Positions 1 through 10,371 of a DNA stretch of 10,371 nucleotides are shown in pieces. Below the pieces are notes generated by a model that saw nothing but the letters and a program-made list of their open reading frames with translations, made no database searches and had not been told where the DNA came from. Within the stretch, counting starts at the first letter, position 1; each line of letters begins with the position of its first letter. The position numbers and the translations under genes were made by a program. The stretch lies in the IMG/VR virus record IMGVR_UViG_2565956719_000006. One strand, written 5' to 3'. The stretch comes from a virus. Its lineage: Duplodnaviria; Heunggongvirae; Uroviricota; Caudoviricetes.

Positions 1-8
1 CCGGCAGA

Positions 9-103
9 AGCAGAAAAAGCTTATTATGCTTCCATCGGAAACGATGATCTGGCAGCCTGAGTTCACAGATAAAACACTCTCCAGGAAACCCGGGGCGGTT
101 CAC
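9..103. repeat. Left copy of a perfect inverted repeat of at least 95 bp (partner 10277..10371)
   Basis: Reverse complement of 10277..10371 is identical to 9..103, checked base by base. Identity breaks at 104 and 10276. The right copy runs to the window edge, so the true length is unknown. Confidence 0.9.
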
Positions 104-186
104 CTCACCGTCTGGTCGGTGTCCTGCTGAGACTTATAACTTCCTGTTTTTGTTGGTGTAGTCCTTACACCGTCCAATCATGATTG

Positions 187-211
187 GCTGGCGGGAGTTG
201 AACCCGAGTCC
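187..211 (-). other. tmRNA (ssrA) 3'-end-like fragment, possible att-core remnant
   Basis: Minus strand reads GGACTCGGGTTCAACTCCCGCCAGC. This matches, with one mismatch, the T-arm and acceptor segment of E. coli ssrA as I recall it (GGACGCGGGTTCAACTCCCGCCAGC-TCCACCA). The terminal TCCACCA is absent. Directly abutting is a perfect 14-bp palindrome CCAATCATGATTGG at 174..187. Confidence 0.3.
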
Positions 212-362
212 AAATATCACTAACTTGATGTAATTAATGATTTTTTCGACATTAACTATCTTGCGGATCTTACACGTATCTTTTACTGTTATATCCCAGT
301 CTTCATAACCAACTATGAATAGTAGATAATCTATAAATCCATCGTATAAGAATGACATCGCT

Positions 363-1274
363 ATGACCATACTGGTACCCCCAAGCAAATTTTGCATTTA
401 CTCAGATGATTCTAGGGCTGGGACATTGAACTTCATCAACTCGATTGAATCGATTGGAGTAAAAAATAAAGGTCGAGTTATAGTTGATTTGTCCAAGGTA
501 AAATTTGCCTCAGCTGCGGCATCGGTACTGTTCTTTGCCATAGTAAATAGAGCTCAATTTTTAACCCGGGACCCTAATTTTATACGTTTTAAATGGCCTA
601 AAAAGGATGATAACCCATCTGGGCATAGATGGATCGTTGGTACTGGACTTGCTCGTGCTTTGCTTGCTGGCACAGAAGAGAAACTGAATGCACTTACGAG
701 GGAGGAACGATACTTTCAGTCAGCTGTCGAACCTTACGAGCATATTGTTGAAACAGTACTCATGCTGCAGAAAAGTGCTCTGCTTAATAATGAACAGTTA
801 GGCTTACTGCTGACAGCGATTAGTGAAGCTTTGCTCAATGTTTCTCATCATGCGTATGAAGATGAGGGGTTCGAGTCAGATATTCAGCTTCTCAAAGGTA
901 AACGATGGTGGCAGTGCGCTTGGTTCAATCGTGATGAAAATAAAGTCGTTTTTATCGTTTGTGACCTTGGATTGGGGATTTATAGAAGTTTCGTGCCTAA
1001 TGGTGATGGTCATAGCATTCAAAACGAAGTATCTTCTGTGGAAAGAGCTATGTTAGTAGGGGAATCCCGCTTTGTTGGTTCCGGACGGGGAAATGGCTCT
1101 GAAGATATCAAGAGACCTATTGGGGCAGGTTGTGAGGATAATGAGACACTTCTGATACTAACAGGAAGGGCTCGTTATAGCTATAATTCTAATGACAGTA
1201 GTCCTCGATGTGAGAAGCTAGCTGAGTACATACCGGGTACTTTACTACAATGGTCGCTGGTTCCCAGGAGATGA
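363..1274 (+). CDS. GHKL-superfamily (Bergerat-fold, histidine-kinase-like) ATPase, anti-sigma/RsbW-like class; possible N-terminal STAS-like segment
   Basis: 303-aa ORF with N-box EALLNVSHHAY (aa 155-165), G1 box DLGLG (aa 201-205) and G2 box GSGRGNG (aa 239-245) in canonical order and spacing. N-terminal stretch VIVDLSKVKFASAAASVLF resembles a STAS core motif. Stop lies 4 bp before the next start. The SD is weak, so the start is uncertain. Confidence 0.75.
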   Translation: MTILVPPSKFCIYSDDSRAGTLNFINSIESIGVKNKGRVIVDLSKVKFASAAASVLFFAIVNRAQFLTRDPNFIRFKWPKKDDNPSGHRWIVGTGLARALLAGTEEKLNALTREERYFQSAVEPYEHIVETVLMLQKSALLNNEQLGLLLTAISEALLNVSHHAYEDEGFESDIQLLKGKRWWQCAWFNRDENKVVFIVCDLGLGIYRSFVPNGDGHSIQNEVSSVERAMLVGESRFVGSGRGNGSEDIKRPIGAGCEDNETLLILTGRARYSYNSNDSSPRCEKLAEYIPGTLLQWSLVPRR

Positions 1275-1278
1275 TTTT

Positions 1279-1605
1279 ATGAGAAATATCGTCATAGCGA
1301 AGGAGTTCTCCAGAACACCTTTCGGACGTTACACAACGGATAGCCCACACAGTGCGGAAAGATTTCGTAGAGAGTTTTTGGTGCCTGCGCTGAAGGGTAC
1401 TGAACAGGAGATTGTGGTTGATTTTCGCGGTATAGCACTGGGTGTTGGTTCCTCTTTCTTAGAAGAGGCGTTTGGAGGTCTCATCCGTAAGGAAGGGATA
1501 CCTAAAGCCAACGTTAAAGCACGTTTGATTATAAAAAGTGATGTTCCGTTCTACAAAGAACAGATTGATAAATTTATTGATTTAGCACAACCAGAAAGAG
1601 TATAA
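1279..1605 (+). CDS. Small STAS-like protein (DUF4325-like), candidate partner or substrate of the upstream GHKL ATPase
   Basis: 108-aa ORF with a good SD (AGGAGA) upstream of ATG 1279. Motif EIVVDFRGIALGVGSSFLEEAFGGL (aa 44-68) fits the STAS / DUF4325 pattern (beta-strand, then a Ser-Ser-Phe helix) as I recall the family. Tight spacing to both flanking genes. Confidence 0.7.
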   Translation: MRNIVIAKEFSRTPFGRYTTDSPHSAERFRREFLVPALKGTEQEIVVDFRGIALGVGSSFLEEAFGGLIRKEGIPKANVKARLIIKSDVPFYKEQIDKFIDLAQPERV

Positions 1606-1615
1606 GAGGCGATAG

Positions 1616-2233
1616 TTGATCAGTACGGAACCAATGTCATTAGTAGCACAAATAGGACAGTATTCGTGGTGTATCACAGTAGTTAGCGTCTGCTTAGTTT
1701 TCATTGGATGGCGAGTTGCGTACAATAATTCTGTAAAACTGGCGACACGTTCTGAATCGAAATCAATTATTGATGCTATTTCAAAGTTAGTTATTGAAAT
1801 TTCTGATATTTCTTCTAACTATTGGCTCAGTCAGACAACTCAACCTAAAATTAGAGCATCAAAGCATCGATTGTTAAGGTTGCAAAAGGATAGAACAAAG
1901 GCTTCTGTTTCATACTTGTTAACTATCTTGGCTAAAGCTCAACAAGTTTCCAAACTGATTTGCATTTTGGAAAGCAGAGGACTGTATATACCTGACGAGG
2001 TGTTCTCATCTGTACTAGAGAAAGCAACTCTGGATTGTGAGGTCGCTCACAAGCTTTCAGATGCCGATCGCCCGGTTAAAGCACAAGAAGTAATTGATGC
2101 TTGTATGGGAGTTATCGAAGCGTTACATACTTCTTTTCAAAGGTACCACCCTCCCAAAAAGGATCGTACCTTTATGCAAAGGTTAAAAATTTGGTTTCAA
2201 ACAGTAGACGATTGGCATAATGACTTAAAATAA
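1616..2233 (+). CDS. Membrane-anchored hypothetical protein (one N-terminal TM helix plus charged soluble domain), third gene of the operon
   Basis: 205-aa ORF starting at TTG 1616 with AAGAGG 6 nt upstream (alternative ATG at 1634 has no SD). Hydrophobic segment YSWCITVVSVCLVFIGW near the N-terminus. Starts 11 bp after the upstream stop. Its 3' end overlaps the integrase 3' end by 9 bp. Confidence 0.65.
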   Translation: MISTEPMSLVAQIGQYSWCITVVSVCLVFIGWRVAYNNSVKLATRSESKSIIDAISKLVIEISDISSNYWLSQTTQPKIRASKHRLLRLQKDRTKASVSYLLTILAKAQQVSKLICILESRGLYIPDEVFSSVLEKATLDCEVAHKLSDADRPVKAQEVIDACMGVIEALHTSFQRYHPPKKDRTFMQRLKIWFQTVDDWHNDLK

Positions 2234-3397
2234 AGCCTTTTTATCCTTGATACTTGCCCTCCCATCATACTCTTTCAAGTATTGTCCATAGTGCCTGAAT
2301 AACATTTCAGGCCCTTTATGGCCCATTTGAGCCGCAAGCCAAAACAGGTTTGCTCCCCGGCTGATATGGCTGGTGGCGAATGTATGCCTGGTTTGATATG
2401 GGTTTCTGTAACGAATACCTGCTTTTCGCAATGTTGGCACCCATGCTTTTTTCCTAATTGCATCAGCACTTGCCCAGGGTTTATTGGTCTTTGGATCTTC
2501 AAAGACAGTAGCATCCTTCATGAATGTAAATGGCTTCTGGTTTATCAACGCCAACATTGCTTCTTCAGTCAGTTCAACTTTACGGGTACCGGCTTTTGTC
2601 TTTGTTCCTTTGATAACTCCGACAACACTTGCGCTCTGAACATGGGCTGTTTTTCCAACAAAGTCGATATCATGCCATCGTAGGGCACATAATTCAGAAC
2701 TACGCAGGCCTGTATGTATGGCGAACCGGAACAGATTTTCCCATTGTTTGTTTCCGGCTGCTGCTAGTAATGCATCAACTTCTGCTGGTGATAGCGGATC
2801 AACCACATAGCTGCTTTCTGCTTCTGACTTATCACTTTGGTAGCGCGAAGCTGTTACTAACGATACGGGGTTAATTTGAAGTACCCCATCGGTCACGGCT
2901 TCATCAAGTGCTGACCGTAGGAAAGATAACTGGTTGCGAATGGTTTTTAAGGTTGTTTTCTGGCTTTGAATCCACGCTTTCAGGGTTGCTGGTGTTAATT
3001 CACTTGCAGGGCAAATGTGAAGTGAGGCTAACGCACTACGGCATTTTTTATAGCCACCAATCGTAGAGGGTGAAAGTTTTCTTGTTTCGCAGATTTCAAG
3101 ATATTCGTCCAGGTACATCTTTACCGTTTTGCTTGCAGCAGCATTACCAAAAATTTTCAAACGAGCAGAACGGGGAAAATATTCTGCATAAATGAATGTT
3201 CCCCTTTCGATCTTATTATGGATTTCGCCGAGTGTACGCTCGGCGTATTTAATGTTCTTTGGTGTTACTTCCAGATTGGAAAGCGGCTCACGACATCTAA
3301 CTCCTTTGTAGGTGAAAGTTATATTGATCGTTTCTCCCTGGTGGTGTTTCCTGATTGTTACGCCGCGCGGTAGTTTGAGCAGTTTTGTCTGGCCCAT
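2225..3397 (-). CDS. int: Tyrosine-type site-specific integrase with N-terminal arm-binding (DUF3596-like) domain
   Basis: 390-aa ORF with GAGG SD. N-terminus LPRGVTIRK...ITFTYKGVRCRE is arm-domain-like. Catalytic box residues are present (TGLRSSEL; HxxR in YQTRHTFATS; LAAQMGHKGPEMLFRHYGQY with the terminal Tyr). Confidence 0.95.
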   Translation of the reverse strand: MGQTKLLKLPRGVTIRKHHQGETINITFTYKGVRCREPLSNLEVTPKNIKYAERTLGEIHNKIERGTFIYAEYFPRSARLKIFGNAAASKTVKMYLDEYLEICETRKLSPSTIGGYKKCRSALASLHICPASELTPATLKAWIQSQKTTLKTIRNQLSFLRSALDEAVTDGVLQINPVSLVTASRYQSDKSEAESSYVVDPLSPAEVDALLAAAGNKQWENLFRFAIHTGLRSSELCALRWHDIDFVGKTAHVQSASVVGVIKGTKTKAGTRKVELTEEAMLALINQKPFTFMKDATVFEDPKTNKPWASADAIRKKAWVPTLRKAGIRYRNPYQTRHTFATSHISRGANLFWLAAQMGHKGPEMLFRHYGQYLKEYDGRASIKDKKALF

Positions 3398-3576
3398 TTT
3401 GCAACCTCACTAAGATCAATCCACCTCTCCTTAACGCCTTCAACCTTTAAAACCTGAACACCTTCACGCCAAACACCGCGCTGTACACGTTTGTTTATTG
3501 CTTCAGGAGTTTCGCCAGTTTCTTTGCAATAAGTTGAGATAGGAACACAATCGAGGTTCAGCATACGTTTCTCCAT
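3358..3576 (-). CDS. xis: Excisionase-like small DNA-binding protein (DUF1233/Xis-like)
   Basis: 72 aa from ATG 3576 (MEKRMLNLDCVPISTYCKETGETPEAINKRVQRGVWREGV...). Overlaps the integrase start by 40 bp, the usual xis-int arrangement. An upstream ATG at 3603 would give 81 aa. Confidence 0.7.
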   Translation of the reverse strand: MEKRMLNLDCVPISTYCKETGETPEAINKRVQRGVWREGVQVLKVEGVKERWIDLSEVAKWARQNCSNYRAA

Positions 3577-3605
3577 TATCCCGTCTGCACACGGGAGCAA
3601 CATTA

Positions 3606-4472
3606 TTAACGAATAGTGTCGTTACTTTGAAGTACAGCAAATGCCATTAATACTTCTAAAGTATATCTTCTATAAAATTTAACAAAACCAACATAGAAAA
3701 CATAGACGAAGAAAAAGCTAAGCATTATTGAAAGTAAACTATAAAGATAATCACTATGAGTACATAATCGATAAATAAAGGTTGGAACTGATACCCAAAA
3801 TGAAATTATAAAGATTAAACATATGTTTCTGCAAAAACCATATAATGCAACATAGTTTTGAATTTTTGTTTGATGTTGTTTTGAAAACTCATAAACATAA
3901 TGATATGCCAATCTGAAGAGATCATCATCAAGTCCGTTTTTATCTTGTAATAATTGGCGATTTGTTATGAACTTTTTCTCATAACCTTCTTTGATCATTA
4001 ACCATGTTGTATTAGCTAAATGAAATGGTAGAGATTGAGAATAACATAGTTTTTGTGTTATAAAATCCCATAGTATTATTGGACATAATACGCATTTGAT
4101 TATGCGATTCTTTATTTTTGTTTTTTTATCAGCGCTTCTCTCATCGCATGATGGGCTACAAATGCTTTCTGAGGTATCTATCAATTTTTTAAATAGATAT
4201 TTGGAAGGATATCCTAATTCTTTATTCATGTATTTTTCGATAAAAAATGCTGACGTGATAGAAATAAAATGTCCAGCTATATAAGATATAATAACTATTG
4301 AAGCGTAGTTCAAAATGCCAAAGATTTGACTTTGACCTCTGAGCAATTCACTTAAGTCAATAACAATATCTAGATCGAATGTCAAACCACAGAAATACAT
4401 TAATAGGATAAAAAAACCACCTGGTATTAAATATCCAAGAAAGTCATAGAATGAGAATGGATTTTGATTCAT
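3606..4472 (-). CDS. Polytopic inner-membrane protein of unknown function (AT-rich moron)
   Basis: 288 aa from ATG 4472, preceded by GGAGAG SD (the ORF-track start at 4496 is 8 codons upstream). About 5-6 hydrophobic helices (e.g. FLGYLIPGGFFILLMYFCGLTF, ICLIFIISFWVSVPTFIY, LYSLLSIMLSFFFVYVFYVGFV). Visibly AT-rich compared with neighbours, with an AT-rich 108-bp upstream spacer. Confidence 0.7.
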   Translation of the reverse strand: MNQNPFSFYDFLGYLIPGGFFILLMYFCGLTFDLDIVIDLSELLRGQSQIFGILNYASIVIISYIAGHFISITSAFFIEKYMNKELGYPSKYLFKKLIDTSESICSPSCDERSADKKTKIKNRIIKCVLCPIILWDFITQKLCYSQSLPFHLANTTWLMIKEGYEKKFITNRQLLQDKNGLDDDLFRLAYHYVYEFSKQHQTKIQNYVALYGFCRNICLIFIISFWVSVPTFIYRLCTHSDYLYSLLSIMLSFFFVYVFYVGFVKFYRRYTLEVLMAFAVLQSNDTIR

Positions 4473-4580
4473 TGTTGCTCTCCAATAATTTTTCAATTTG
4501 TAATATAACCTATATCTATATGTTAATAAATTACTTATATGTTCTTTTATGGCAGAGTTTGAATTCGTACGTGCTGATTT

Positions 4581-5105
4581 TTACGACTCAGTTAACTCTT
4601 TAAAGCGTTCCATAAACATCCCATAGGTATGGCCTGGCGACAGTGGAATAACTTTGAACATCTCTGTTGCCGGGATACCTTCCAGTACGGGCCAGAAAGA
4701 GCCATCATCAAGCCCGAGATCGCGGCGTTCGGTTGCCAGCATGATGAGATCGGCATATTTCACGGGCGTACTCATAACCGGGGGTAACCCGTATTTCTCA
4801 CGGATTACGGCGTCTATTTTTTCTTCCATCCGTTTATAGTCAGGAAGAAGGCGTTTCAGTGGCGCCGGGATGTCCTGGCAATACGCTTCTGTTGCATCAT
4901 GCATTAACGCTTCAAAAGCAAATTCCTGCGGTACCAGTTGGCTGCAAAGCACCGCATGTTGGGCGACGCTGTAGAAATGTGAAAGATGTCCTGCAAAGCG
5001 ACAGATATTTGAAAGAGAAACCGCGATATCGTTAATAACGATGTCGTCTTTATTTATCCTGTCATAATAAAAATGCTTCCCGGAAAAAGTTTTAATAAAT
5101 GACAT
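4581..5105 (-). CDS. yfdR: HD-domain phosphohydrolase (YfdR-like, 5'-deoxynucleotidase family)
   Basis: HD motif context HLSHF...ALMHDATEAY. ATG 5105 has a GGAG SD; in-frame GTG starts at 5117 and 5132 are alternatives. Symbol is from my recollection of the E. coli K-12 CPS-53 yfdP-yfdQ-yfdR cluster (120/274/178 aa), which matches the sizes and order here. Confidence 0.8.
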   Translation of the reverse strand: MSFIKTFSGKHFYYDRINKDDIVINDIAVSLSNICRFAGHLSHFYSVAQHAVLCSQLVPQEFAFEALMHDATEAYCQDIPAPLKRLLPDYKRMEEKIDAVIREKYGLPPVMSTPVKYADLIMLATERRDLGLDDGSFWPVLEGIPATEMFKVIPLSPGHTYGMFMERFKELTES

Positions 5106-5199
5106 TTTGTTCTCCACGTATATGCGCTGCACCGCGCTGAATTCTGGTAAAAGAAAGCCCTCACCATCCGGCGATTATTGAGTCAATTACGTTTCCATA

Positions 5200-5221
5200 A
5201 ATGCCCCCGCAGGGGCATTTG
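5200..5221. other. Intercistronic GC-rich hairpin (9-bp perfect stem, 4-nt loop) between the yfdQ-like and yfdR-like genes
   Basis: AAATGCCCC-CGCA-GGGGCATTT. No U-tract on either strand, so it is not a canonical intrinsic terminator. Confidence 0.5.
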
Positions 5222-5232
5222 CAGTAATGAAA

Positions 5233-6057
5233 TCAGGCGGTAAAAGTACCAATAAAGGTTTCTACTTTGCTGTCCTTGAATTTCTCAACAAGCAGATCAC
5301 GAAATTCGTTAGCCATTTCTTCCTGCACTGCTTCCAGCTGAATAATGCGCAGAACCAGTACAGGACGATCGCCAGTGATAATGCTGAGGCGTAATTTAAA
5401 CGGACGTTCTTTCAGGCCTTCAAACGGAACGCATTTAAATTCAAATGCCACTGGCATAATATCTTTGGTCTTCGCTTCGACAGACTCCATCAGGGAGCGT
5501 TTGCCGCTGAAGTCATTGTCTTCAAAATCAGCGGTCTGGTTTGCTTCAATCGTGATTTTACGGACTGCCGCAGCCGCTTTTGTTGCCTGAATAGCATCAC
5601 CATTAGCATCAAAGCCCACAAGGTAGTCGGCCCAGTCTTCAATCCATTCTGCCAGTGACTTCTGGGAGTTACGCTCGCCGTTAACAGACAACAGGGCAGA
5701 GAACGGTGCTGTCTTTTTCAGTTTGAGAGTGGCGGTGTTATCTGCGTGACCAGGCTCATCAATAGTACCCAGGTTAAGCACACTGACGGCACGCATATTA
5801 TCGGCATCGATAAAGCAGCGGGTGCCTTCATCCGCAAGATCTTTAGAATAACGGGTAAAGTCATCGATGCTGGCAGTGGAAAGCGCACCACGGAAACGGA
5901 AGCGATTTAAATTAAATTTTTCCAGATCATGAATGCGGAAATTCTCAGGCAATACCACAGCATCGGCACCAATCTTACTGATAATTTCATTAACACCCTG
6001 AGCAGAAATAAGGGCATGGATTTGATTAATTGCGGTTGCGTCTAAGTTCTGAGACAT
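5233..6057 (-). CDS. yfdQ: YfdQ-like prophage protein (DUF2303 family)
   Basis: 274-aa ORF with GAGGA SD 7 nt upstream of ATG 6057. Length and neighbourhood match my recollection of K-12 YfdQ. Confidence 0.8.
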
Positions 6058-6122
6058 AATAAGTCCTCACTATATAAAGATATTCAGTGATGAGATAAAT
6101 AATCAGTTAATTAAGAACGATA

Positions 6123-6485
6123 TTAATGACCTGCTGCGCGGAGTTTTCCGTCAGGTTCACCGGCAAGAGTCAGTAATTGTCCCTGGTCTTCCTGCAGAAT
6201 AGTCAGGCGACCACCGCGATTGACATACATCGGCGTTTCGGTGGTGTCTTCTTCGGAAATTTTCCCGCGGTTAGTCGGACGAACATATGAGAGTTTGTGT
6301 TTTATTTTCACACGGTTCTCATCAAACGGTTCGATTTCCAGGTTGAGCGAGACCTTACCTTTGGTTTTCGTGTTCATCACACCGGAAGCGACTTCACTGA
6401 GAACTGCGCCGATTTTGGTTTCAAATACGCCGCCGTCCAGCTCCCCGATAAATTCCTGCACGTTGGTACTGCGTTCGCTAGCCAT
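6123..6485 (-). CDS. yfdP: YfdP-like small prophage protein
   Basis: 120 aa from ATG 6485 with a strong GAGGAG SD. The ORF-track 226-aa form adds an Arg/Cys-rich, non-protein-like extension running into GC-rich non-coding DNA. Confidence 0.7.
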   Translation of the reverse strand: MASERSTNVQEFIGELDGGVFETKIGAVLSEVASGVMNTKTKGKVSLNLEIEPFDENRVKIKHKLSYVRPTNRGKISEEDTTETPMYVNRGGRLTILQEDQGQLLTLAGEPDGKLRAAGH

Positions 6486-6533
6486 TTTGCTGCTCCTCAT
6501 CATATCGACCCTGCAAGGTCGGTTGGTTTCTCC

Positions 6534-6622
6534 ACAAAACAGAGAAGAACACCTGCGGTGGCAGCCGCCCGGGTGGATTGGGTTATGAGCCCGTCGTCCG
6601 GTGATGCTCTTCTCTGTTTTGT
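6534..6622 (-). promoter_or_regulatory. Candidate structured leader RNA element: 15-bp perfect inverted repeat closing a 59-nt GC-rich loop, with boxA-like motif at its edge
   Basis: 6534..6548 (ACAAAACAGAGAAGA) is the exact reverse complement of 6608..6622. The enclosed segment contains two further short hairpins (GCGGTGGCAGCCGC; CGGGT...GCCCG). Minus strand at 6621..6633 reads CCGCTCTTTTTAC. It lies about 50 nt upstream of the yfdP-like SD. Confidence 0.3.
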
Positions 6623-6953
6623 AAAAAGAGCGGTACCAGCCGGAAGCAAGGGTACAAGCTGGTACCGCCAGGACTACACACAGCATAAAGTTGTGGTGCC
6701 GGGTGCCTCCCGGTGCCTGGCGAAGGTTGCACACCAGGCGGGTGGGTATCCACAGAAGGTCGACTGTCAGCCTCAACCTTAACCCGCGTGCGCTGAGCCG
6801 CATTCACCACAACGCTAAGGATTCTCTCTGGTTGAAAATACTTAGCTGTTATGTGCCTGCTTTTAGCCACATCAGGCGAGGTGGGCCTGGTTATTCCCCA
6901 ACAACAAGGATTCGGCTAATCTGGATGACTCTGTTCTTAGAGGGGATAATTAA

Positions 6954-7466
6954 ATGGGAGCGATTTATGTTAAACGTTTGATTCTGTCGGTAGCACTGAT
7001 AATACCGATAGCATCCAATGCTTCTGATGCTTTGAACCAGCCGAGCAGTAGTCTAAATGATGGTGTTGAGACTTTTTTTATTTCCTGCTTTGATATGCCT
7101 CAGGAAACAACTACTGATATGGACGCTTGTCAGAGAGTTCAGTTAGCTCAGGTTAGTTGGGTTAAGAATAAGTATTCGGTGGCCGCCCTGAATCGTTTGA
7201 AACAAGACAACAAGGATGATCCACAGCGTCTGCAGGAATTAACTGCTTCTTTTAACGCGGAAAGTGAAGCTTGGACAGAATTAATTGAGAAAGCGTCAAA
7301 GTCCGTCCAGGTTGATTATGCAGGAGGAACTATAGCTGGCACTGCAGTTGCATCACGTCAAATTGGTCTTCTGGAATTACAATCCCACGATATCTGGGAG
7401 CACTGGCTACGATTCGAGGACTCAACTCCTCCTCTTTTGCCAGAACCAAAGTTCAAATCTGAGTAA
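6954..7466 (+). CDS. Secreted/periplasmic protein with Sec signal peptide (possibly DUF1311/LprI-like), moron
   Basis: 170-aa ORF with SD GAGGGG. N-terminus KRLILSVALIIPIASNA|SDA is a typical signal peptide. Two Cys in the mature N-terminal part. Own intrinsic terminator downstream. Confidence 0.75.
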   Translation: MGAIYVKRLILSVALIIPIASNASDALNQPSSSLNDGVETFFISCFDMPQETTTDMDACQRVQLAQVSWVKNKYSVAALNRLKQDNKDDPQRLQELTASFNAESEAWTELIEKASKSVQVDYAGGTIAGTAVASRQIGLLELQSHDIWEHWLRFEDSTPPLLPEPKFKSE

Positions 7467-7493
7467 TAAGTCATCCAGATTGTTAAAGAGCGA

Positions 7494-7517
7494 AGCGTCC
7501 TATAGGGCGCTTTTTTG
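7494..7517 (+). terminator. Rho-independent terminator of the secreted-protein gene
   Basis: AGCGTCC-TATA-GGGCGCT stem (7 bp, one G-U) followed by TTTTTT, about 28 nt after the stop. Confidence 0.6.
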
Positions 7518-7594
7518 TTGCTAACGAATCATCCTGGACTTCATATGCCCCAGGCGGCTACTTCGTGGGCGTCCTGCCTGTTTGTTGTTTCTCT

Positions 7595-7630
7595 TGGGTA
7601 CATTATGTGTCTCAAAGGTACATTGTCAAG
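7595..7630 (-). promoter_or_regulatory. Putative leftward (PL-like) promoter with GTAC-core operator-like repeats
   Basis: Minus strand has TTGACA, an 18-nt spacer and TAATGT. Two direct GGTACATT repeats (7597..7604, 7617..7624) share the GTAC core of the OR palindromes. Confidence 0.3.
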
Positions 7631-7656
7631 TATAAAAAAACCTGCCGAAGCAGGTT
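7631..7656 (-). terminator. Rho-independent terminator downstream of cI
   Basis: On the minus strand, a CCTGC-TTCG-GCAGG hairpin (extendable by two A-U pairs) is followed by a U-run, 13 nt after the cI stop. Confidence 0.6.
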
Positions 7657-7668
7657 CATAAACATTGA

Positions 7669-8343
7669 TTAGGCTTTGATTTTGTATCTTCTTGGTTTTC
7701 CTGAGAAAATCACAGTACCAATTATAGAGCAATTACCGTTGATCTTAATGTAAGGCTCAGGCCAGTTTGGGTTTAACGCTTTGAGATAACGCTGTGTCCC
7801 ATCTTCTATCAACCTTTTGAAGGTGGTTTCACCTGTATCGTGCATCAATGCAATAACGTCGTCACCGTGGCAGGCAGGTACTTCAGGATCGACAAAAATC
7901 ATGTCTCCCGGGCGGTACTCATCAATCATTGAATCACCTATCACCCGCAAGATATAAGTCATTTCCCCACAGGGTACAGGGCAGGGATACGTTTCTGCTG
8001 TGCTCAAATCAACCTCAGAATATCCAACTTCTTTCCATGCTCCGGCCTGTACCCATGATATGACAGGGACTAATGTGATTTGTTTATTAGTGATTGAAAC
8101 ATCAGGTTTTTTTGTGATGTTCGTTGTCTGGTGTTCTTGATCGAGCCATCCGACAGGCAGGTCGAAACATTTTTCGATGTGTCGTGCCATGCTGTCACCG
8201 ATATTTTTAGTAGCACCATCTCCCATAAACCTGCTGGTCTGGGTTGGCTCGCGATCAATCATAGTGGCAAAGGAAGAATTCCCGCCAACACCATCTCTCA
8301 GTTTTCTGGCGTTAGACCGCCGGATGTCATGGATTGTTTTCAT
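7669..8343 (-). CDS. CI-like phage repressor (N-terminal HTH, C-terminal S24 LexA-like autopeptidase)
   Basis: 224 aa. C-terminal domain has catalytic Ser in VIGDSM and Lys in TFKRL, the LexA/CI S24 signature. Divergent from the cro-like gene. Confidence 0.9.
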   Translation of the reverse strand: MKTIHDIRRSNARKLRDGVGGNSSFATMIDREPTQTSRFMGDGATKNIGDSMARHIEKCFDLPVGWLDQEHQTTNITKKPDVSITNKQITLVPVISWVQAGAWKEVGYSEVDLSTAETYPCPVPCGEMTYILRVIGDSMIDEYRPGDMIFVDPEVPACHGDDVIALMHDTGETTFKRLIEDGTQRYLKALNPNWPEPYIKINGNCSIIGTVIFSGKPRRYKIKA

Positions 8344-8434
8344 AACGAAATTAAAACCCTTGTACCGTTAAGGTACAAGTATCTTGAAGGTTCATTTCAA
8401 TCATGTAATATGTACACCGTAGGTACACATTGTA
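8344..8434. promoter_or_regulatory. Immunity switch: OR-like operators with divergent PR and PRM promoters
   Basis: Palindrome CTTGTACC-GTTAA-GGTACAAG at 8359..8379 and imperfect TGTACACCGTAGGTACACA at 8411..8429. PR candidate is TTGAAG (8384..8389), 16 nt, TAATAT (8406..8411). PRM candidate on minus is TTGTAC, 17 nt, TTTAAT, ending 6 nt before the cI ATG, which implies a leaderless cI mRNA as in lambda. Confidence 0.6.
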
Positions 8435-8634
8435 TGAAAGCGTATTGGGACTCTTTAACCAAAGAACAGCAGGGCGAGTTGGCCGGAAAAGTTGGCTCAA
8501 CACCTGGCTACTTACGGCTGGTTTTCAATGGCTATAAAAAAGCCAGTTTTGTGCTGGCTAAAAAACTTGAGCAATGCACGTCAGGTGCAATTACGAAATC
8601 TGACTTAAGACCGGATATCTATCCGAAAGATTAG
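8435..8634 (+). CDS. Cro/YdaS-like small HTH regulator
   Basis: 66 aa from ATG 8435 (MKAYWDSLTKEQQGELAGKVGSTPGYLRLVFNGYKK...ITKSDLRPDIYPKD), position and pattern of a YdaS/Cro-family protein. The longer ORF-track form (8131..8634) would overlap cI and the operators. Confidence 0.75.
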
Positions 8635-8665
8635 CAGAACACTTTCAATTTTTAACCACAGAACG

Positions 8666-9229
8666 ATGAGGCTAACCGTGGGTAAGTATCACTGGAAAAT
8701 AGAAAAACAGCCTGAGTGGTACGTGAAAGCTGTCAGAAAAACGATCGCGGCGTTGCCGGGTGGTTACGCTGAAGCGGCTGACTGGCTCGATGTAACAGAA
8801 AACGCTTTATTCAACCGCCTTCGTGCAGATGGCGATCAGATTTTCCCGCTGGGATGGGCAATGGTTTTACAGCGTGCTGGTGGCACTCACTTCATTGCTG
8901 ATGCTGTGGCGCAGTCTGCAAATGGCGTCTTTGTGTCTCTTCCTGACGTCGAGGATGTGGACAACGCCGATATCAACCAACGCCTGCTGGAGGTCATTGA
9001 ACAGATCGGCAGTTATTCAAAACAGATTCGTTCAGCAATTGAAGACGGTGTAGTGGAACCGCATGAGAAGACAGCAATTAACGATGAGCTGTACCTCTCA
9101 ATTTCGAAGCTGCAGGAGCATGCAGCACTGGTCTACAAAATCTTTTGCGTTTCAGAAAGTAGTGACGCCCGCGAGTGTGCAGCTCCGGGCGCCGTGGCGT
9201 GTCGTGACTGTGGAGAAACTAACGCATGA
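8666..9229 (+). CDS. CII/YdaT-like phage regulatory protein (putative)
   Basis: 187-aa ORF immediately downstream of the cro-like gene. Alternative GTG start at 8678 has a better SD (GAGG). Family assignment is by position and general resemblance only. Confidence 0.6.
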
Positions 9230-9564
9230 ACAGTTTAACAACACACTACCGTCGCTCGCAACTGATTGCGCTTCCTGTACCGGGTGGAAAAGCGAAGGTG
9301 GAGTATTGCTATGCAGTAAATGTACCAGGTGACAGGGAAATTGTAACCCACAGCTTTGCTGAGTGGGCTGTGGGTGATTTCAACCGGCAGAAGGAGACAG
9401 TCCTTTGCGACAAGTTAACCGCTGGTTCAAAGATCACTACGGAGTGCCCGTCAGAGTCATTCGTTGGGAACCGGAAACACAACGGGTTATCTACCTCCGC
9501 GAAGGCTATGAGCATGAATGCTTCAGTCCGCTCGAACAGTTTCGTCGTAAATTCAGGGAAATAG
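9226..9564 (+). CDS. Hypothetical protein, translationally coupled (ATGA overlap) to the CII/YdaT-like gene
   Basis: 112-aa ORF whose ATG overlaps the upstream TGA (ATGA). Its stop is 9 nt before the O-like gene start. No recognisable motif. Confidence 0.5.
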
Positions 9565-9573
9565 AGGTCGGTC

Positions 9574-10317
9574 ATGAGCACTAAATTAACCGGCTATGTA
9601 TGGGATGGTTGCGCTGCGTCAGGCATGAAGTTATCCAGCGTGGCAATTATGGCCCGCCTGGCTGATTTCAGTAATGACGAAGGTGTGTGCTGGCCATCAA
9701 TTGAAACCATTGCCCGCCAGATTGGCGCGGGGATGAGTACCGTCAGAACGGCTATCGCACGGCTGGAAGCAGAAGGCTGGTTAACGCGTAAGGCGCGTCG
9801 CCAGGGTAACCGCAATGCGTCGAATGTTTATCAGCTTAACGTTGCGAAGCTTCAGGCAGCGGCATTTTCTCAACTGTCAGATTCTGACCCGTCAAAATCT
9901 GACGCATCAAAATCTGCCCCGTCAAAATTTGATGCGTCGAAATCTGGCAAAAAAGCGGGTTTTCACCCGTCAGAATCTGGCGGGGATCCGTCAGTAAAAT
10001 CAAAACATGATCCGTCAGATAAAAAAACTTCTCGTCCGGACGCTTCGCAACCGGACACGCAGACGGCTGAACAGGAGTTTTTAACTCGCCATCCTGATGC
10101 TGTTGTATTCAGCCCTAAAAAGCGCCAGTGGGGAACGCAGGATGATTTGACCTGCGCACAGTGGCTCTGGAAAAAAATCATCGCCCTGTACGAGCAGGCT
10201 GCCGAATGTGACGGCGAGGTGGTTCGTCCCAAAGAACCGAACTGGACAGCCTGGGCAAACGAAATTCGCCTGATGTGTGAACCGCCCCGGGTTTCCTGGA
10301 GAGTGTTTTATCTGTGA
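9574..10317 (+). CDS. Lambda O-like replication initiator (N-terminal HTH domain, low-complexity linker); C-terminus possibly truncated or chimeric
   Basis: 247 aa with SD AGAGG. The Ser/Asp/Lys/Pro-rich linker coincides with the iteron array. The last 13 codons and the stop lie inside the terminal inverted repeat, which begins at 10277. Confidence 0.8.
   Translation: MSTKLTGYVWDGCAASGMKLSSVAIMARLADFSNDEGVCWPSIETIARQIGAGMSTVRTAIARLEAEGWLTRKARRQGNRNASNVYQLNVAKLQAAAFSQLSDSDPSKSDASKSAPSKFDASKSGKKAGFHPSESGGDPSVKSKHDPSDKKTSRPDASQPDTQTAEQEFLTRHPDAVVFSPKKRQWGTQDDLTCAQWLWKKIIALYEQAAECDGEVVRPKEPNWTAWANEIRLMCEPPRVSWRVFYL
9875..10030. repeat. Origin-of-replication-like iteron array with adjacent A-rich tract inside the O-like gene
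   Basis: At least five tandem ~15-bp imperfect palindromic units (CTGTCAGATTCTGAC, CGTCAAAATCTGACG, CATCAAAATCTGCCC, CGTCAAAATTTGATG, CGTCGAAATCTGGC, CGTCAGAATCTGGCG), then CCGTCAG repeats and AAAAAAA at 10021..10027. This mirrors ori-lambda organisation. Confidence 0.7.
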
Positions 10318-10371
10318 ACTCAGGCTGCCAGATCATCGTTTCCGATGGAAGCATAATAAGCTTTTTCTGCT
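10277..10371. repeat. Right copy of the perfect inverted repeat of at least 95 bp (partner 9..103)
   Basis: Exact reverse complement of 9..103. Runs to the window edge. Confidence 0.9.

What the first reader, a model, noticed from the sequence alone, without database searches (positions are those of the whole stretch)
174..211. tmRNA (ssrA) 3'-end-like 25-mer next to a perfect 14-bp palindrome: possible att remnant
The minus strand at 187..211 matches, 24 of 25, the T-arm and acceptor portion of E. coli ssrA as I recall it, but lacks the terminal TCCACCA. ssrA is a classic integration target, so this could be a partial att core or the trace of an earlier integration. The abutting palindrome CCAATCATGATTGG (174..187) could be a recombinase or regulator site. 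It sits about 2 kb from the integrase 3' end, with the three-gene operon between, which would make that operon cargo lying between int and att.
Basis: partly seen in the sequence, partly recalled or inferred. Interest (0 to 1): 0.5.

Follow-up and report, generated by a model that had tools for sequence, protein, structure and literature searches.

The report
Prophage boundary scar from tmRNA gene
This is the far boundary (attR) of a prophage integrated into the E. coli tmRNA gene ssrA: a left-over 25-base copy of the gene's tail, missing five bases, followed by the gene's normal downstream DNA, which is an ordinary and well-understood integration signature.

Summary
Minus strand 211..187 matches ssrA nt 332-356 at 24/25, far beyond chance.

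Only 5 bases (TCCAC, nt 357-361) are missing, not 7. Homology to the native ssrA 3' flank then resumes and runs to an IS629 end at 1-102.

In near-identical genomes such as UM146, the same site lies 43 kb from an intact ssrA in the same orientation. A myovirus-type prophage and a tyrosine integrase lie between them. ssrA joined directly to this flank exists as an empty site in 709 E. coli genomes.

So this is the prophage's own distal junction, not a relic of an earlier event. Its integrase is 91% identical to that of Citrobacter phage phiNP, whose 25-bp ssrA attachment site was mapped experimentally. The phage LLS record annotates the equivalent "tmRNA pseudogene".

The 14-bp palindrome is native ssrA flank beginning with the CCA end. 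It is absent from phiNP, altered in other lysogens, and expected by chance about 0.7 times per window.

The three genes between int and att occupy a variable cargo slot.

One point of interest: deletions starting exactly after CCAGC recur in displaced ssrA fragments, including K-12 psaA and Shewanella CP4So. Excision here would probably leave a defective tmRNA gene.

The parts
1..102 (+). Right end of IS629 (3' end of orfB, stop at 58-60, plus the terminal inverted repeat). It is inserted into the ssrA 3' flank 84 bp from the remnant. It is not part of the att site.
   Evidence: 98-100% identity to IS629 copies in Stx phages. The IRR tip TGAACCGCCCCGGG maps to 89-102 on the minus strand. This junction is absent from 5,426 complete E. 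coli genomes.
103..186 (-). Bacterial side of attR: the native sequence that follows ssrA in unoccupied E. coli loci. It is also homologous to the P' arm of related phages.
   Evidence: ssrA joined to this flank is found at 100% identity over 655 bp, with at least 80% coverage in 709 genomes.
174..187 (.). Perfect 14-bp palindrome CCAATCATGATTGG. In the native locus its first CCA is the tmRNA CCA end. It is probably incidental.
186..187 (-). Site of the 5-bp deletion (TCCAC, ssrA nt 357-361). It removes the U of the G.U pair and most of the acceptor 3' strand.
   Evidence: Alignment of attL, attR and the window. Four genomes with the same prophage junction are not deleted here.
187..211 (-). 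Displaced ssrA 3' fragment (nt 332-356: T-arm plus the first 4 nt of the acceptor 3' strand), with phage-derived G336T.
196..202 (-). T-loop TTCAACT flanked by the T-stem halves. This is one of two candidate crossover segments. It lies inside the 25-bp phiNP core.
   Evidence: The phiNP core GGTTCAACTCCCGCCAGCTCCACCA is given in PMC6456863. The crossover position itself is inferred.
212..261 (-). AT-rich phage-side spacer of the P arm.
   Evidence: Comparison of six phage arms. Role inferred.
262..283 (-). Candidate tandem arm-type integrase sites (AAAGATACGTG TAAGATCCGCA), a degenerate form of AAGGATMCGCA x2.
   Evidence: By eye, all six related arms compared carry a tandem motif in the corresponding part of the arm. 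A strict regex finds tandem pairs only in att arms, in five of the seven sequences scanned. Function inferred.
363..1274 (+). Cargo gene 1, 303 aa, with weak HATPase_c_2 (anti-sigma-kinase-like ATPase) similarity.
1279..1605 (+). Cargo gene 2, 108 aa, STAS-like DUF4325.
1634..2233 (+). Cargo gene 3, 199 aa, with no family match.
2225..3397 (-). Tyrosine integrase (Arm-DNA-bind_2 + SAM-like + Phage_integrase domains), 91% identical to phiNP Int.
3358..3564 (-). Probable excisionase (68 aa) overlapping the int start, as xis does in phiNP and LLS.
   Evidence: Assigned by position only. No Pfam hit.

Best explanation
Window 103-283 is the distal junction (attR) of a phiNP/LLS-like temperate myovirus integrated into the E. 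coli tmRNA gene ssrA.

How the junction arose. The phage attP carries a copy of the last ~30 nt of ssrA plus a ~165-bp trailer and terminator. Its tyrosine integrase recombines this copy with the chromosomal gene somewhere within nt 337-363. After integration the working ssrA ends in phage-supplied sequence (attL). The original chromosomal tail is pushed about 43 kb away, where it sits behind phage-arm DNA. That displaced tail is the 25-mer.

What is phage and what is host. The G->T change at nt 336 is phage-derived. Everything from the palindrome leftwards is the original chromosomal flank.

The deletion. The displaced tail has no function of its own and has lost TCCAC. Because the deletion removes the acceptor 3' strand, including the U of the G.U pair, one of two outcomes follows. 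Either excision can no longer occur, or excision would leave ssrA without a usable 3' end. In both cases the prophage is hard to lose.

The surroundings. The three genes between int and the P arm are cargo. The IS629 is a later, unrelated insertion.

Shown versus inferred. Shown: the anatomy, the two copies, the empty site, the relatives and the polymorphism. Inferred: the crossover position, the timing of the deletion and its consequence for excision.
For: - Match to ssrA: 24/25.
- Identity to a known prophage: window 100-10279 is 99.86% identical to the UM146 prophage.
- Layout in UM146: glaH, then the remnant, then cargo, int and about 43 kb of phage genes, then intact ssrA and smpB. Both copies are on the same strand, and they are the only two in 50 kb.
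- Repeat between the two junctions: 91.8% over 122 columns, continuing to a shared terminator.
- Origin of each side: downstream of attL the variants are phage-type, as in LLS. Downstream of attR they are the native type found in empty sites.
- Empty attB: 100% identity over 655 bp.
- Integrase relatives: 91% identity to phiNP and 86% to LLS.
- Published mapping: phiNP integration into a 25-bp ssrA 3' site was mapped experimentally in K-12 (PMC6456863; PMC3072379).
- Annotation precedent: the LLS record annotates 'tmRNA pseudogene' and attP one cargo gene downstream of int.
- Host origin of the right side: the same or 95%-identical integrase junctions are followed by whatever 3' end and flank the host had. 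These are intact TCCACCA, delT or del4, with three different flanks.
- Timing of the deletion: the window-type junction occurs undeleted in four genomes and with del5 in most of 119.
Against: - The window stops 10 kb into the prophage, so the ssrA end of this particular genome was not seen.
- The exact IS629 junction is not in the complete-genome collection.
- The site is not a complete core. Five of the 25 phiNP core bases are missing, so its competence for recombination is unknown.
- The same del5 occurs behind at least five different phage left arms and with three flank alleles. A single late random deletion does not easily explain that.
Confidence: 0.9

Rival explanations
1. The 5-bp deletion is not neutral decay. 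It is a recurrent, site-specific lesion that couples prophage loss to loss of tmRNA function. It would arise either as a scar at an integrase cleavage site at C356|T357 or as a selected 'addiction' mutation. Excision would then act as a costly event or a regulatory switch, as in Shewanella CP4So. This refines the best explanation and does not replace it.
For: - IMG/VR contigs with CGGGTTCAACTCCCGCCAG intact: the first departure from ssrA falls at T357 in 95 contigs. It falls at C358 in 2, at C359 in 2, at A360 in 0 and at C361 in 0.
- The 95 are mostly deletions of 1, 3, 4, 5 or 6 nt, all starting at T357, with many flanks and left arms.
- K-12 psaA, the CP4-57 attR, also lacks this T.
- The CP4So attR lacks the same U. 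Excision there transfers the deletion into ssrA and abolishes tmRNA function (PMC5148205).
- No E. coli complete genome has ssrA with del5.
Against: - The contigs are not phylogenetically independent.
- Positions 337-355 were not scanned.
- The hot spot is seen with two nearly unrelated integrase families (about 25% identity over 89 aa). That argues against a scar specific to one enzyme.
- The crossover position of the phiNP-type integrase is unknown.
- No excision data exist for this prophage, and the UM146 copy carries several frameshifted genes.
Confidence: 0.3
2. The 25-mer is a relic of an earlier, different element in a tandem array, and the present prophage's true att lies elsewhere.
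For: - Tandem arrays at ssrA are common. L019 and L020 show a second integrase island immediately after the equivalent remnant.
- The same del5 lies behind different left arms.
Against: - In UM146 only two copies of the core exist across the whole interval, and native chromosome (glaH) follows within 0.7 kb.
- The DNA abutting the remnant carries a motif pair similar to that seen in the arms of the five related elements compared, by eye.
- No tRNA or tmRNA gene or other core copy is present in the window.
Confidence: 0.05
3. The palindrome CCAATCATGATTGG is a functional protein-binding site, either an integrase core site or a regulator operator.
For: It is perfect, it abuts the core, and it is conserved in LLS attP, in UM146 attL and in many native loci.
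Against: - It is absent from phiNP attP, which recombines with ssrA (PMC6456863).
- It is replaced by CCAAATAATGATTGG in three lysogens of the same prophage.
- It lies outside the 25-bp phiNP core, apart from the terminal CCA.
- Chance expectation is 0.7 per window.
- Other ssrA flanks, such as the CP4-57 type, lack it.
Confidence: 0.05
4. Chance resemblance to ssrA.
For: None beyond the shortness of the match.
Against: - 24/25, against a next-best of 15/25.
- Homology continues into the native ssrA flank.
- An intact ssrA lies at the other end in near-identical genomes.
Confidence: 0

Closest known systems
Citrobacter rodentium phage phiNP, ssrA attP/attB (Petty et al. 2011, PMC3072379; Magaziner et al. 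2019, PMC6456863)
   Same: The integrase is 91% identical. Both are myovirus-type temperate phages with int followed by cargo and then a tmRNA 3' copy. The published 25-bp core GGTTCAACTCCCGCCAGCTCCACCA overlaps the remnant. The P' arm is homologous to the flank seen here.
   Different: Here the site is the prophage attR, not attP. It lacks TCCAC of the core and carries G336T. The cargo differs (HATPase_c_2-like, STAS-like and unknown, versus an AAA ATPase). phiNP has no palindrome after CCA.
Escherichia phage LLS (PQ299149), annotated 'tmRNA pseudogene' and attP
   Same: The integrase is 86% identical. The order is the same: xis, int, one cargo gene, tmRNA 3' copy, palindrome, about 165 bp of trailer with the tandem AAGGATACGCA/AAGGAGCCGCG motif, then a terminator.
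   Different: The LLS copy is complete through CCA, as a functional attP must be to restore ssrA. The window copy is the displaced, deleted one.
CP4-57 of E. coli K-12 (psaA remnant) and CP4So of Shewanella oneidensis (Zeng et al. 2016, PMC5148205)
   Same: Both are ssrA-integrated prophages whose distal remnant carries a deletion starting at the U of the acceptor G.U pair (K-12: CCGCCAGC-CCACCA). In CP4So, excision moves the defect into ssrA and abolishes tmRNA function.
   Different: Those elements use P4-like IntA/AlpA, which is only about 25% identical over 89 aa to the integrase here. They lack 1 nt rather than 5. Their ssrA homology starts later (nt 349 in K-12). The consequence of excision has not been tested for this prophage.
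Generic tDNA-island signature used by Islander (Hudson, Lau and Williams 2015, PMC4383910)
   Same: An intact tDNA, a same-orientation displaced 3' fragment and an integrase between them. The island restores the gene.
   Different: None in principle. The fragment here is shortened by a 5-bp deletion.

Membership tests
tDNA-integrated prophage/island junction (Islander criteria) | A fragment matching the 3' part of the target tRNA/tmRNA gene | tested here: met
   24/25 to ssrA nt 332-356 of UM146 and K-12.
tDNA-integrated prophage/island junction (Islander criteria) | A full-length target gene in the same orientation at the other end of the element | tested here: met
   Met in UM146, whose prophage is 99.86% identical to the window. 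ssrA is at L002 44384-44746 (-) and the remnant at L002 1267-1291 (-). This cannot be seen in the window itself, which covers only 10 kb.
tDNA-integrated prophage/island junction (Islander criteria) | An integrase gene inside the interval | tested here: met
   390-aa tyrosine recombinase at 2225-3397 (-): Arm-DNA-bind_2 7.5e-24, Phage_integrase 2.3e-16.
tDNA-integrated prophage/island junction (Islander criteria) | An unoccupied site exists in which the gene and the distal flank are contiguous | tested here: met
   A synthetic ssrA + attR-flank query is 100% identical over 655 bp. 709 genomes have at least 80% coverage.
tDNA-integrated prophage/island junction (Islander criteria) | The element supplies a replacement 3' end so that the gene stays intact | tested here: met
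   UM146 attL is an intact ssrA followed by a phage-type trailer, as in LLS attP.
phiNP/LLS-type ssrA-targeting integration module | An integrase closely related to phiNP Int | tested here: met
   91.2% identity to phiNP and 85.6% to LLS, with 98-99% coverage.
phiNP/LLS-type ssrA-targeting integration module | The complete 25-bp core GGTTCAACTCCCGCCAGCTCCACCA at the site | tested here: not met
   The window has GGTTCAACTCCCGCCAGC-----CA, with 5 bp missing. The core is complete at attL of UM146 and at the same junction in L022-L024.
phiNP/LLS-type ssrA-targeting integration module | Int-dependent recombination at this site | not testable with these tools
   Needs an excision or integration assay.
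Excision-coupled ssrA inactivation (CP4So / CP4-57 type) | The distal remnant lacks nucleotide(s) of the acceptor 3' strand, including the U of G.U | tested here: met
   TCCAC (nt 357-361) is deleted. The K-12 psaA and CP4So remnants lack the same T.
Excision-coupled ssrA inactivation (CP4So / CP4-57 type) | P4-like IntA/AlpA recombination module | tested here: not met
   Window Int against K-12 IntA: 25% identity over 89 aa, E = 0.009.
Excision-coupled ssrA inactivation (CP4So / CP4-57 type) | Excision transfers the defect into ssrA and abolishes tmRNA function | not testable with these tools
   The only indirect evidence is that no complete E. coli genome carries ssrA with this 5-bp deletion; the best hits are the intact gene at 98.5%.

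The most novel reading that the evidence does not exclude
The TCCAC deletion is one instance of a general, previously unquantified hot spot. In displaced ssrA fragments, deletions of 1-6 nt start exactly after CCAGC (C356|T357). They occur behind unrelated integrase families and with many flanks. This would be either a molecular scar marking a tyrosine-recombinase cleavage position or a selected lesion that makes cured cells tmRNA-defective. In either case ssrA prophages would become 'addictive', and a host lineage would stay locked into always carrying some ssrA-restoring element.
Probability: 0.3. Interest if true: 0.5.

Novelty: new member of a known kind. Interest (0 to 1): 0.2.

Why it matters
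As an att remnant it matters only for annotation. It fixes the int-proximal end of a prophage that is widespread in ExPEC/APEC B2 strains such as UTI89, S88, APEC O1, IHE3034 and UM146. It also marks the three genes next to it as phage cargo.

The deletion could matter more. If excision moves it into ssrA, curing this prophage would cost the cell trans-translation, as shown for CP4So in Shewanella. The sharp deletion hot spot at C356|T357 could be used to map integrase cleavage sites from genome data alone, or to recognise prophages that have become hard to lose.

Tried and rejected
- ARAGORN and Rfam report no gene, only a sub-threshold T-arm match. This is expected for a 25-nt fragment.
- Searching phage genomes for an attP that carries the 5-bp deletion returned only LLS, whose copy is intact. 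IMG/VR and metagenome scans found the deleted form only at prophage-chromosome junctions. I therefore dropped the idea that the deletion is phage-borne with the crossover inside the palindrome. Two further results argue against it. The same junction occurs undeleted. A 95%-identical integrase sits next to remnants followed by host-dependent 3' ends and flanks.
- A hypothetical cured site (ssrA with del5) was not found in any complete E. coli genome.
- The source genome with the IS629 junction was not found.
- My own recollection of the K-12 ssrA 3' end (GGGGGTTCAAATCCCCCC) was wrong and was corrected.
- The LLS 'attP' annotation (20 nt ending in the T-loop) was considered as evidence for a T-loop crossover. 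I rejected it because its basis is unknown.
- Williams 2002 and 2003 (the sublocation paper and 'Traffic at the tmRNA gene') and Wang 2009 are not in the held library, so the sublocation assignment for this integrase family could not be checked.
- PADLOC gave no hit for the cargo genes.

Full report
**1. Observation**

The plus strand at 174-211 reads CCAATCATGATTGGCTGGCGGGAGTTGAACCCGAGTCC. On the minus strand, 211..187 is GGACTCGGGTTCAACTCCCGCCAGC.

The annotated ssrA genes of E. coli UM146 and K-12 MG1655 both end GGACGCGGGTTCAACTCCCGCCAGCTCCACCA. The 25-mer therefore matches nt 332-356 of the 363-nt gene at 24/25, with a single G->T change at nt 336. The next-best 25-mer anywhere in the window has 10 mismatches.

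ARAGORN and Rfam report no tmRNA gene. Only the T-arm gives a sub-threshold Rfam match.

The palindrome is present and perfect at 174-187. A 14-bp perfect palindrome is expected 0.7 times in a window of this size and composition.

**2. What is missing**

Aligning the window with both ends of the UM146 prophage shows that only TCCAC (nt 357-361) is absent. After it, the sequence CAATCATGATTGGACGGTGTAAGGAC... continues exactly as it does after the real ssrA. The palindrome is therefore not a separate element placed next to the remnant. In the native locus it begins with the CCA end of tmRNA.

**3. Context**

- Window 1-102 is the right end of IS629.
- Window 100-10279 is 99.86% identical to a prophage of UM146 and of many B2 ExPEC/APEC genomes, including UTI89, S88, APEC O1, IHE3034 and NU14.
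- In UM146 the order is: gabP-gabT-gabD-lhgO-glaH, the remnant, three small genes, the integrase, about 43 kb of lambdoid-regulatory and myovirus-structural genes, then ssrA and smpB. The remnant and ssrA are on the same strand and are the only two copies of the core in 50 kb.
- The two junctions share an imperfect direct repeat. It runs from GGAC of the T-arm through about 165 bp of trailer to a common intrinsic terminator (91.8% over 122 columns).
- A synthetic sequence joining ssrA to the flank at the remnant is found at 100% identity over 655 bp. 709 genomes have at least 80% coverage. That is the unoccupied attB.

Downstream of the working ssrA the variable positions are phage-type, as in phage LLS. 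Downstream of the remnant they are the native type. This is the arrangement expected when attP supplies a new 3' end and the old one is displaced (principle stated in PMC4383910).

**4. Relatives**

The 390-aa integrase has Arm-DNA-bind_2, SAM-like and Phage_integrase domains. It is 91% identical to that of Citrobacter phage phiNP, 86% to Klebsiella phage Kp4866-6 and 86% to Escherichia phage LLS.

phiNP was shown experimentally to integrate into a 25-bp site, GGTTCAACTCCCGCCAGCTCCACCA, at the 3' end of ssrA in C. rodentium and in K-12, regenerating the gene (PMC6456863; PMC3072379).

The LLS record annotates a 'tmRNA pseudogene' and attP one gene downstream of int. Its sequence there is collinear with the window: tmRNA tail, palindrome, trailer, terminator.

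By eye, all six related arms compared carry a tandem motif resembling AAGGATMCGCA x2 upstream of the core. In the window it lies at 262-283 and is degenerate. The same pair recurs in the P' arm and in the native flank. I read these as arm-type integrase sites, which is an inference.

**5. Cargo**

Integrases 95-97% identical to the window's sit next to unrelated genes in the same slot:
- a 302-aa ORF in L007;
- a 272-aa ORF in L018;
- a 271-aa protein in LLS;
- an AAA ATPase in phiNP.

The window's cargo is a weak HATPase_c_2-like protein, a STAS-like DUF4325 protein and an unknown 199-aa protein. None is in PADLOC.

**6. The palindrome**

- It is native ssrA flank.
- It is also present in LLS attP.
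- phiNP, which is recombination-proficient, has CTTTAGACAGG in its place.
- Three genomes with the same prophage junction have CCAAATAATGATTGG.
- The CP4-57-type flank lacks it.

I conclude it is incidental.

**7. Origin of the 5-bp deletion**

The crossover must lie between the phage-specific T336 and the first flank-specific base after A363.

A 95%-identical integrase, with an identical left arm, is followed in different genomes by four different right sides:
- intact TCCACCA plus a palindrome-type flank;
- CCACCA (delT) plus a CP4-57-type island;
- TCCACCA plus a third island;
- CCA (del4).

The window-type junction itself occurs in 119 genomes. Every listed hit below the top four has the 330-nt span that indicates del5. 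Three genomes have an intact TCCACCA, and one has two substitutions instead.

So the right side of the remnant is host-derived, and the deletion is polymorphic among lysogens of the same prophage. It most likely arose after integration. No free-phage attP with the deletion was found.

**8. A wider pattern**

I scanned IMG/VR for contigs that keep CGGGTTCAACTCCCGCCAG... intact and counted where they first depart from ssrA.

| First departure | Contigs |
|---|---|
| C356 | 15 (mostly other organisms' tmRNA or tRNA ends) |
| T357 | 95 |
| C358 | 2 |
| C359 | 2 |
| A360 | 0 |
| C361 | 0 |

The 95 resolve into delT (43), del3 (4), del4 (19), del5 (6), del6 (3) and other junctions (20), with many flanks and left arms.

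The K-12 CP4-57 remnant psaA is CCGCCAGC-CCACCA, which is again delT. In Shewanella CP4So the same missing U lies in attR. There, excision transfers it into ssrA and abolishes tmRNA function (PMC5148205).

The integrase here is almost unrelated to P4-like IntA, so the hot spot is not tied to one enzyme family.

Caveats:
- The contigs are not independent.
- The suffix-based classification is heuristic.
- Positions left of nt 356 were not scanned.

Whether the hot spot is a cleavage scar, a selected 'addiction' lesion or both is open. No complete E. coli genome has ssrA carrying the 5-bp deletion. That is compatible with blocked excision or with counter-selection of excisants.

**9. Verdict**

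The finding is a genuine, correctly recognised ssrA-derived att remnant. It is the attR of a phiNP/LLS-like prophage, a known kind of feature with close, experimentally characterised relatives.

The palindrome hypothesis is rejected, and the cargo reading is supported. The finding itself is ordinary, so interest is low. The recurrent deletion anchored at C356|T357 is the one aspect worth following up.

Noticed in passing
window 186/187; IMG/VR loci L026-L118; K-12 L258 273-286: Displaced ssrA 3' fragments show a sharp deletion hot spot starting exactly after CCAGC (T357). It is seen in 95 IMG/VR contigs, against 2, 2, 0 and 0 at the next four positions. Deletions are 1-6 nt long, lie behind unrelated integrase families and occur with many flanks. 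K-12 psaA has delT too.
   Followed up: partly
window 103-186; L002 44200-44384; L004 7093-7245; L006 26-185: The 'native' ~165-bp trailer between ssrA and its terminator in E. coli is homologous to the P' arm of LLS and phiNP attP. The shared region includes a tandem AAGGATACGCA/AAGGAGCCGCG motif and hairpins with compensatory differences between copies. The chromosomal flank may itself be an old phage arm, or the phages may have captured it.
   Followed up: partly
window 363-2233 (+): The three-gene cargo block in the int-attP slot encodes a 303-aa protein with weak HATPase_c_2 similarity, a 108-aa STAS-like DUF4325 protein and a 199-aa protein with no family. This pairing resembles a partner-switching kinase/antagonist pair. 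No PADLOC match. Unrelated cargo occupies the same slot next to 95-97% identical integrases.
   Followed up: partly
window 1-102: An IS629 right end is inserted into the ssrA 3' flank, just before the flank's copy of the tandem AAGGATACGCA-type motif. This IS-flank junction is not present in any of 5,426 complete E. coli genomes searched.
   Followed up: partly
L021 (E. coli HH97, NZ_CP116409) remnant: The same prophage junction is full length but has two substitutions in the remnant (T-loop C->A, and T357->A), while the ~300-bp surroundings carry one change. This is another sign that the remnant core mutates faster than its flanks.
   Followed up: no
L015 (metagenome contig ERZ506759 NODE-1245) about 110 nt 3' of the remnant: The flank switches from native-type variants to the phage-type variant (gacaTaaaagg) within one low-coverage contig. 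This is either gene conversion between attL and attR trailers or an assembly chimera.
   Followed up: no
window 10280-10371: The last ~90 bases of the window no longer align with the UM146 prophage, which suggests a mosaic breakpoint in the early region.
   Followed up: no
L002 (UM146) 7579-36942: The UM146 copy of this prophage has several frameshifted genes (holin, small terminase, a tail protein and an HTH replication-region gene), so it is probably defective there.
   Followed up: no
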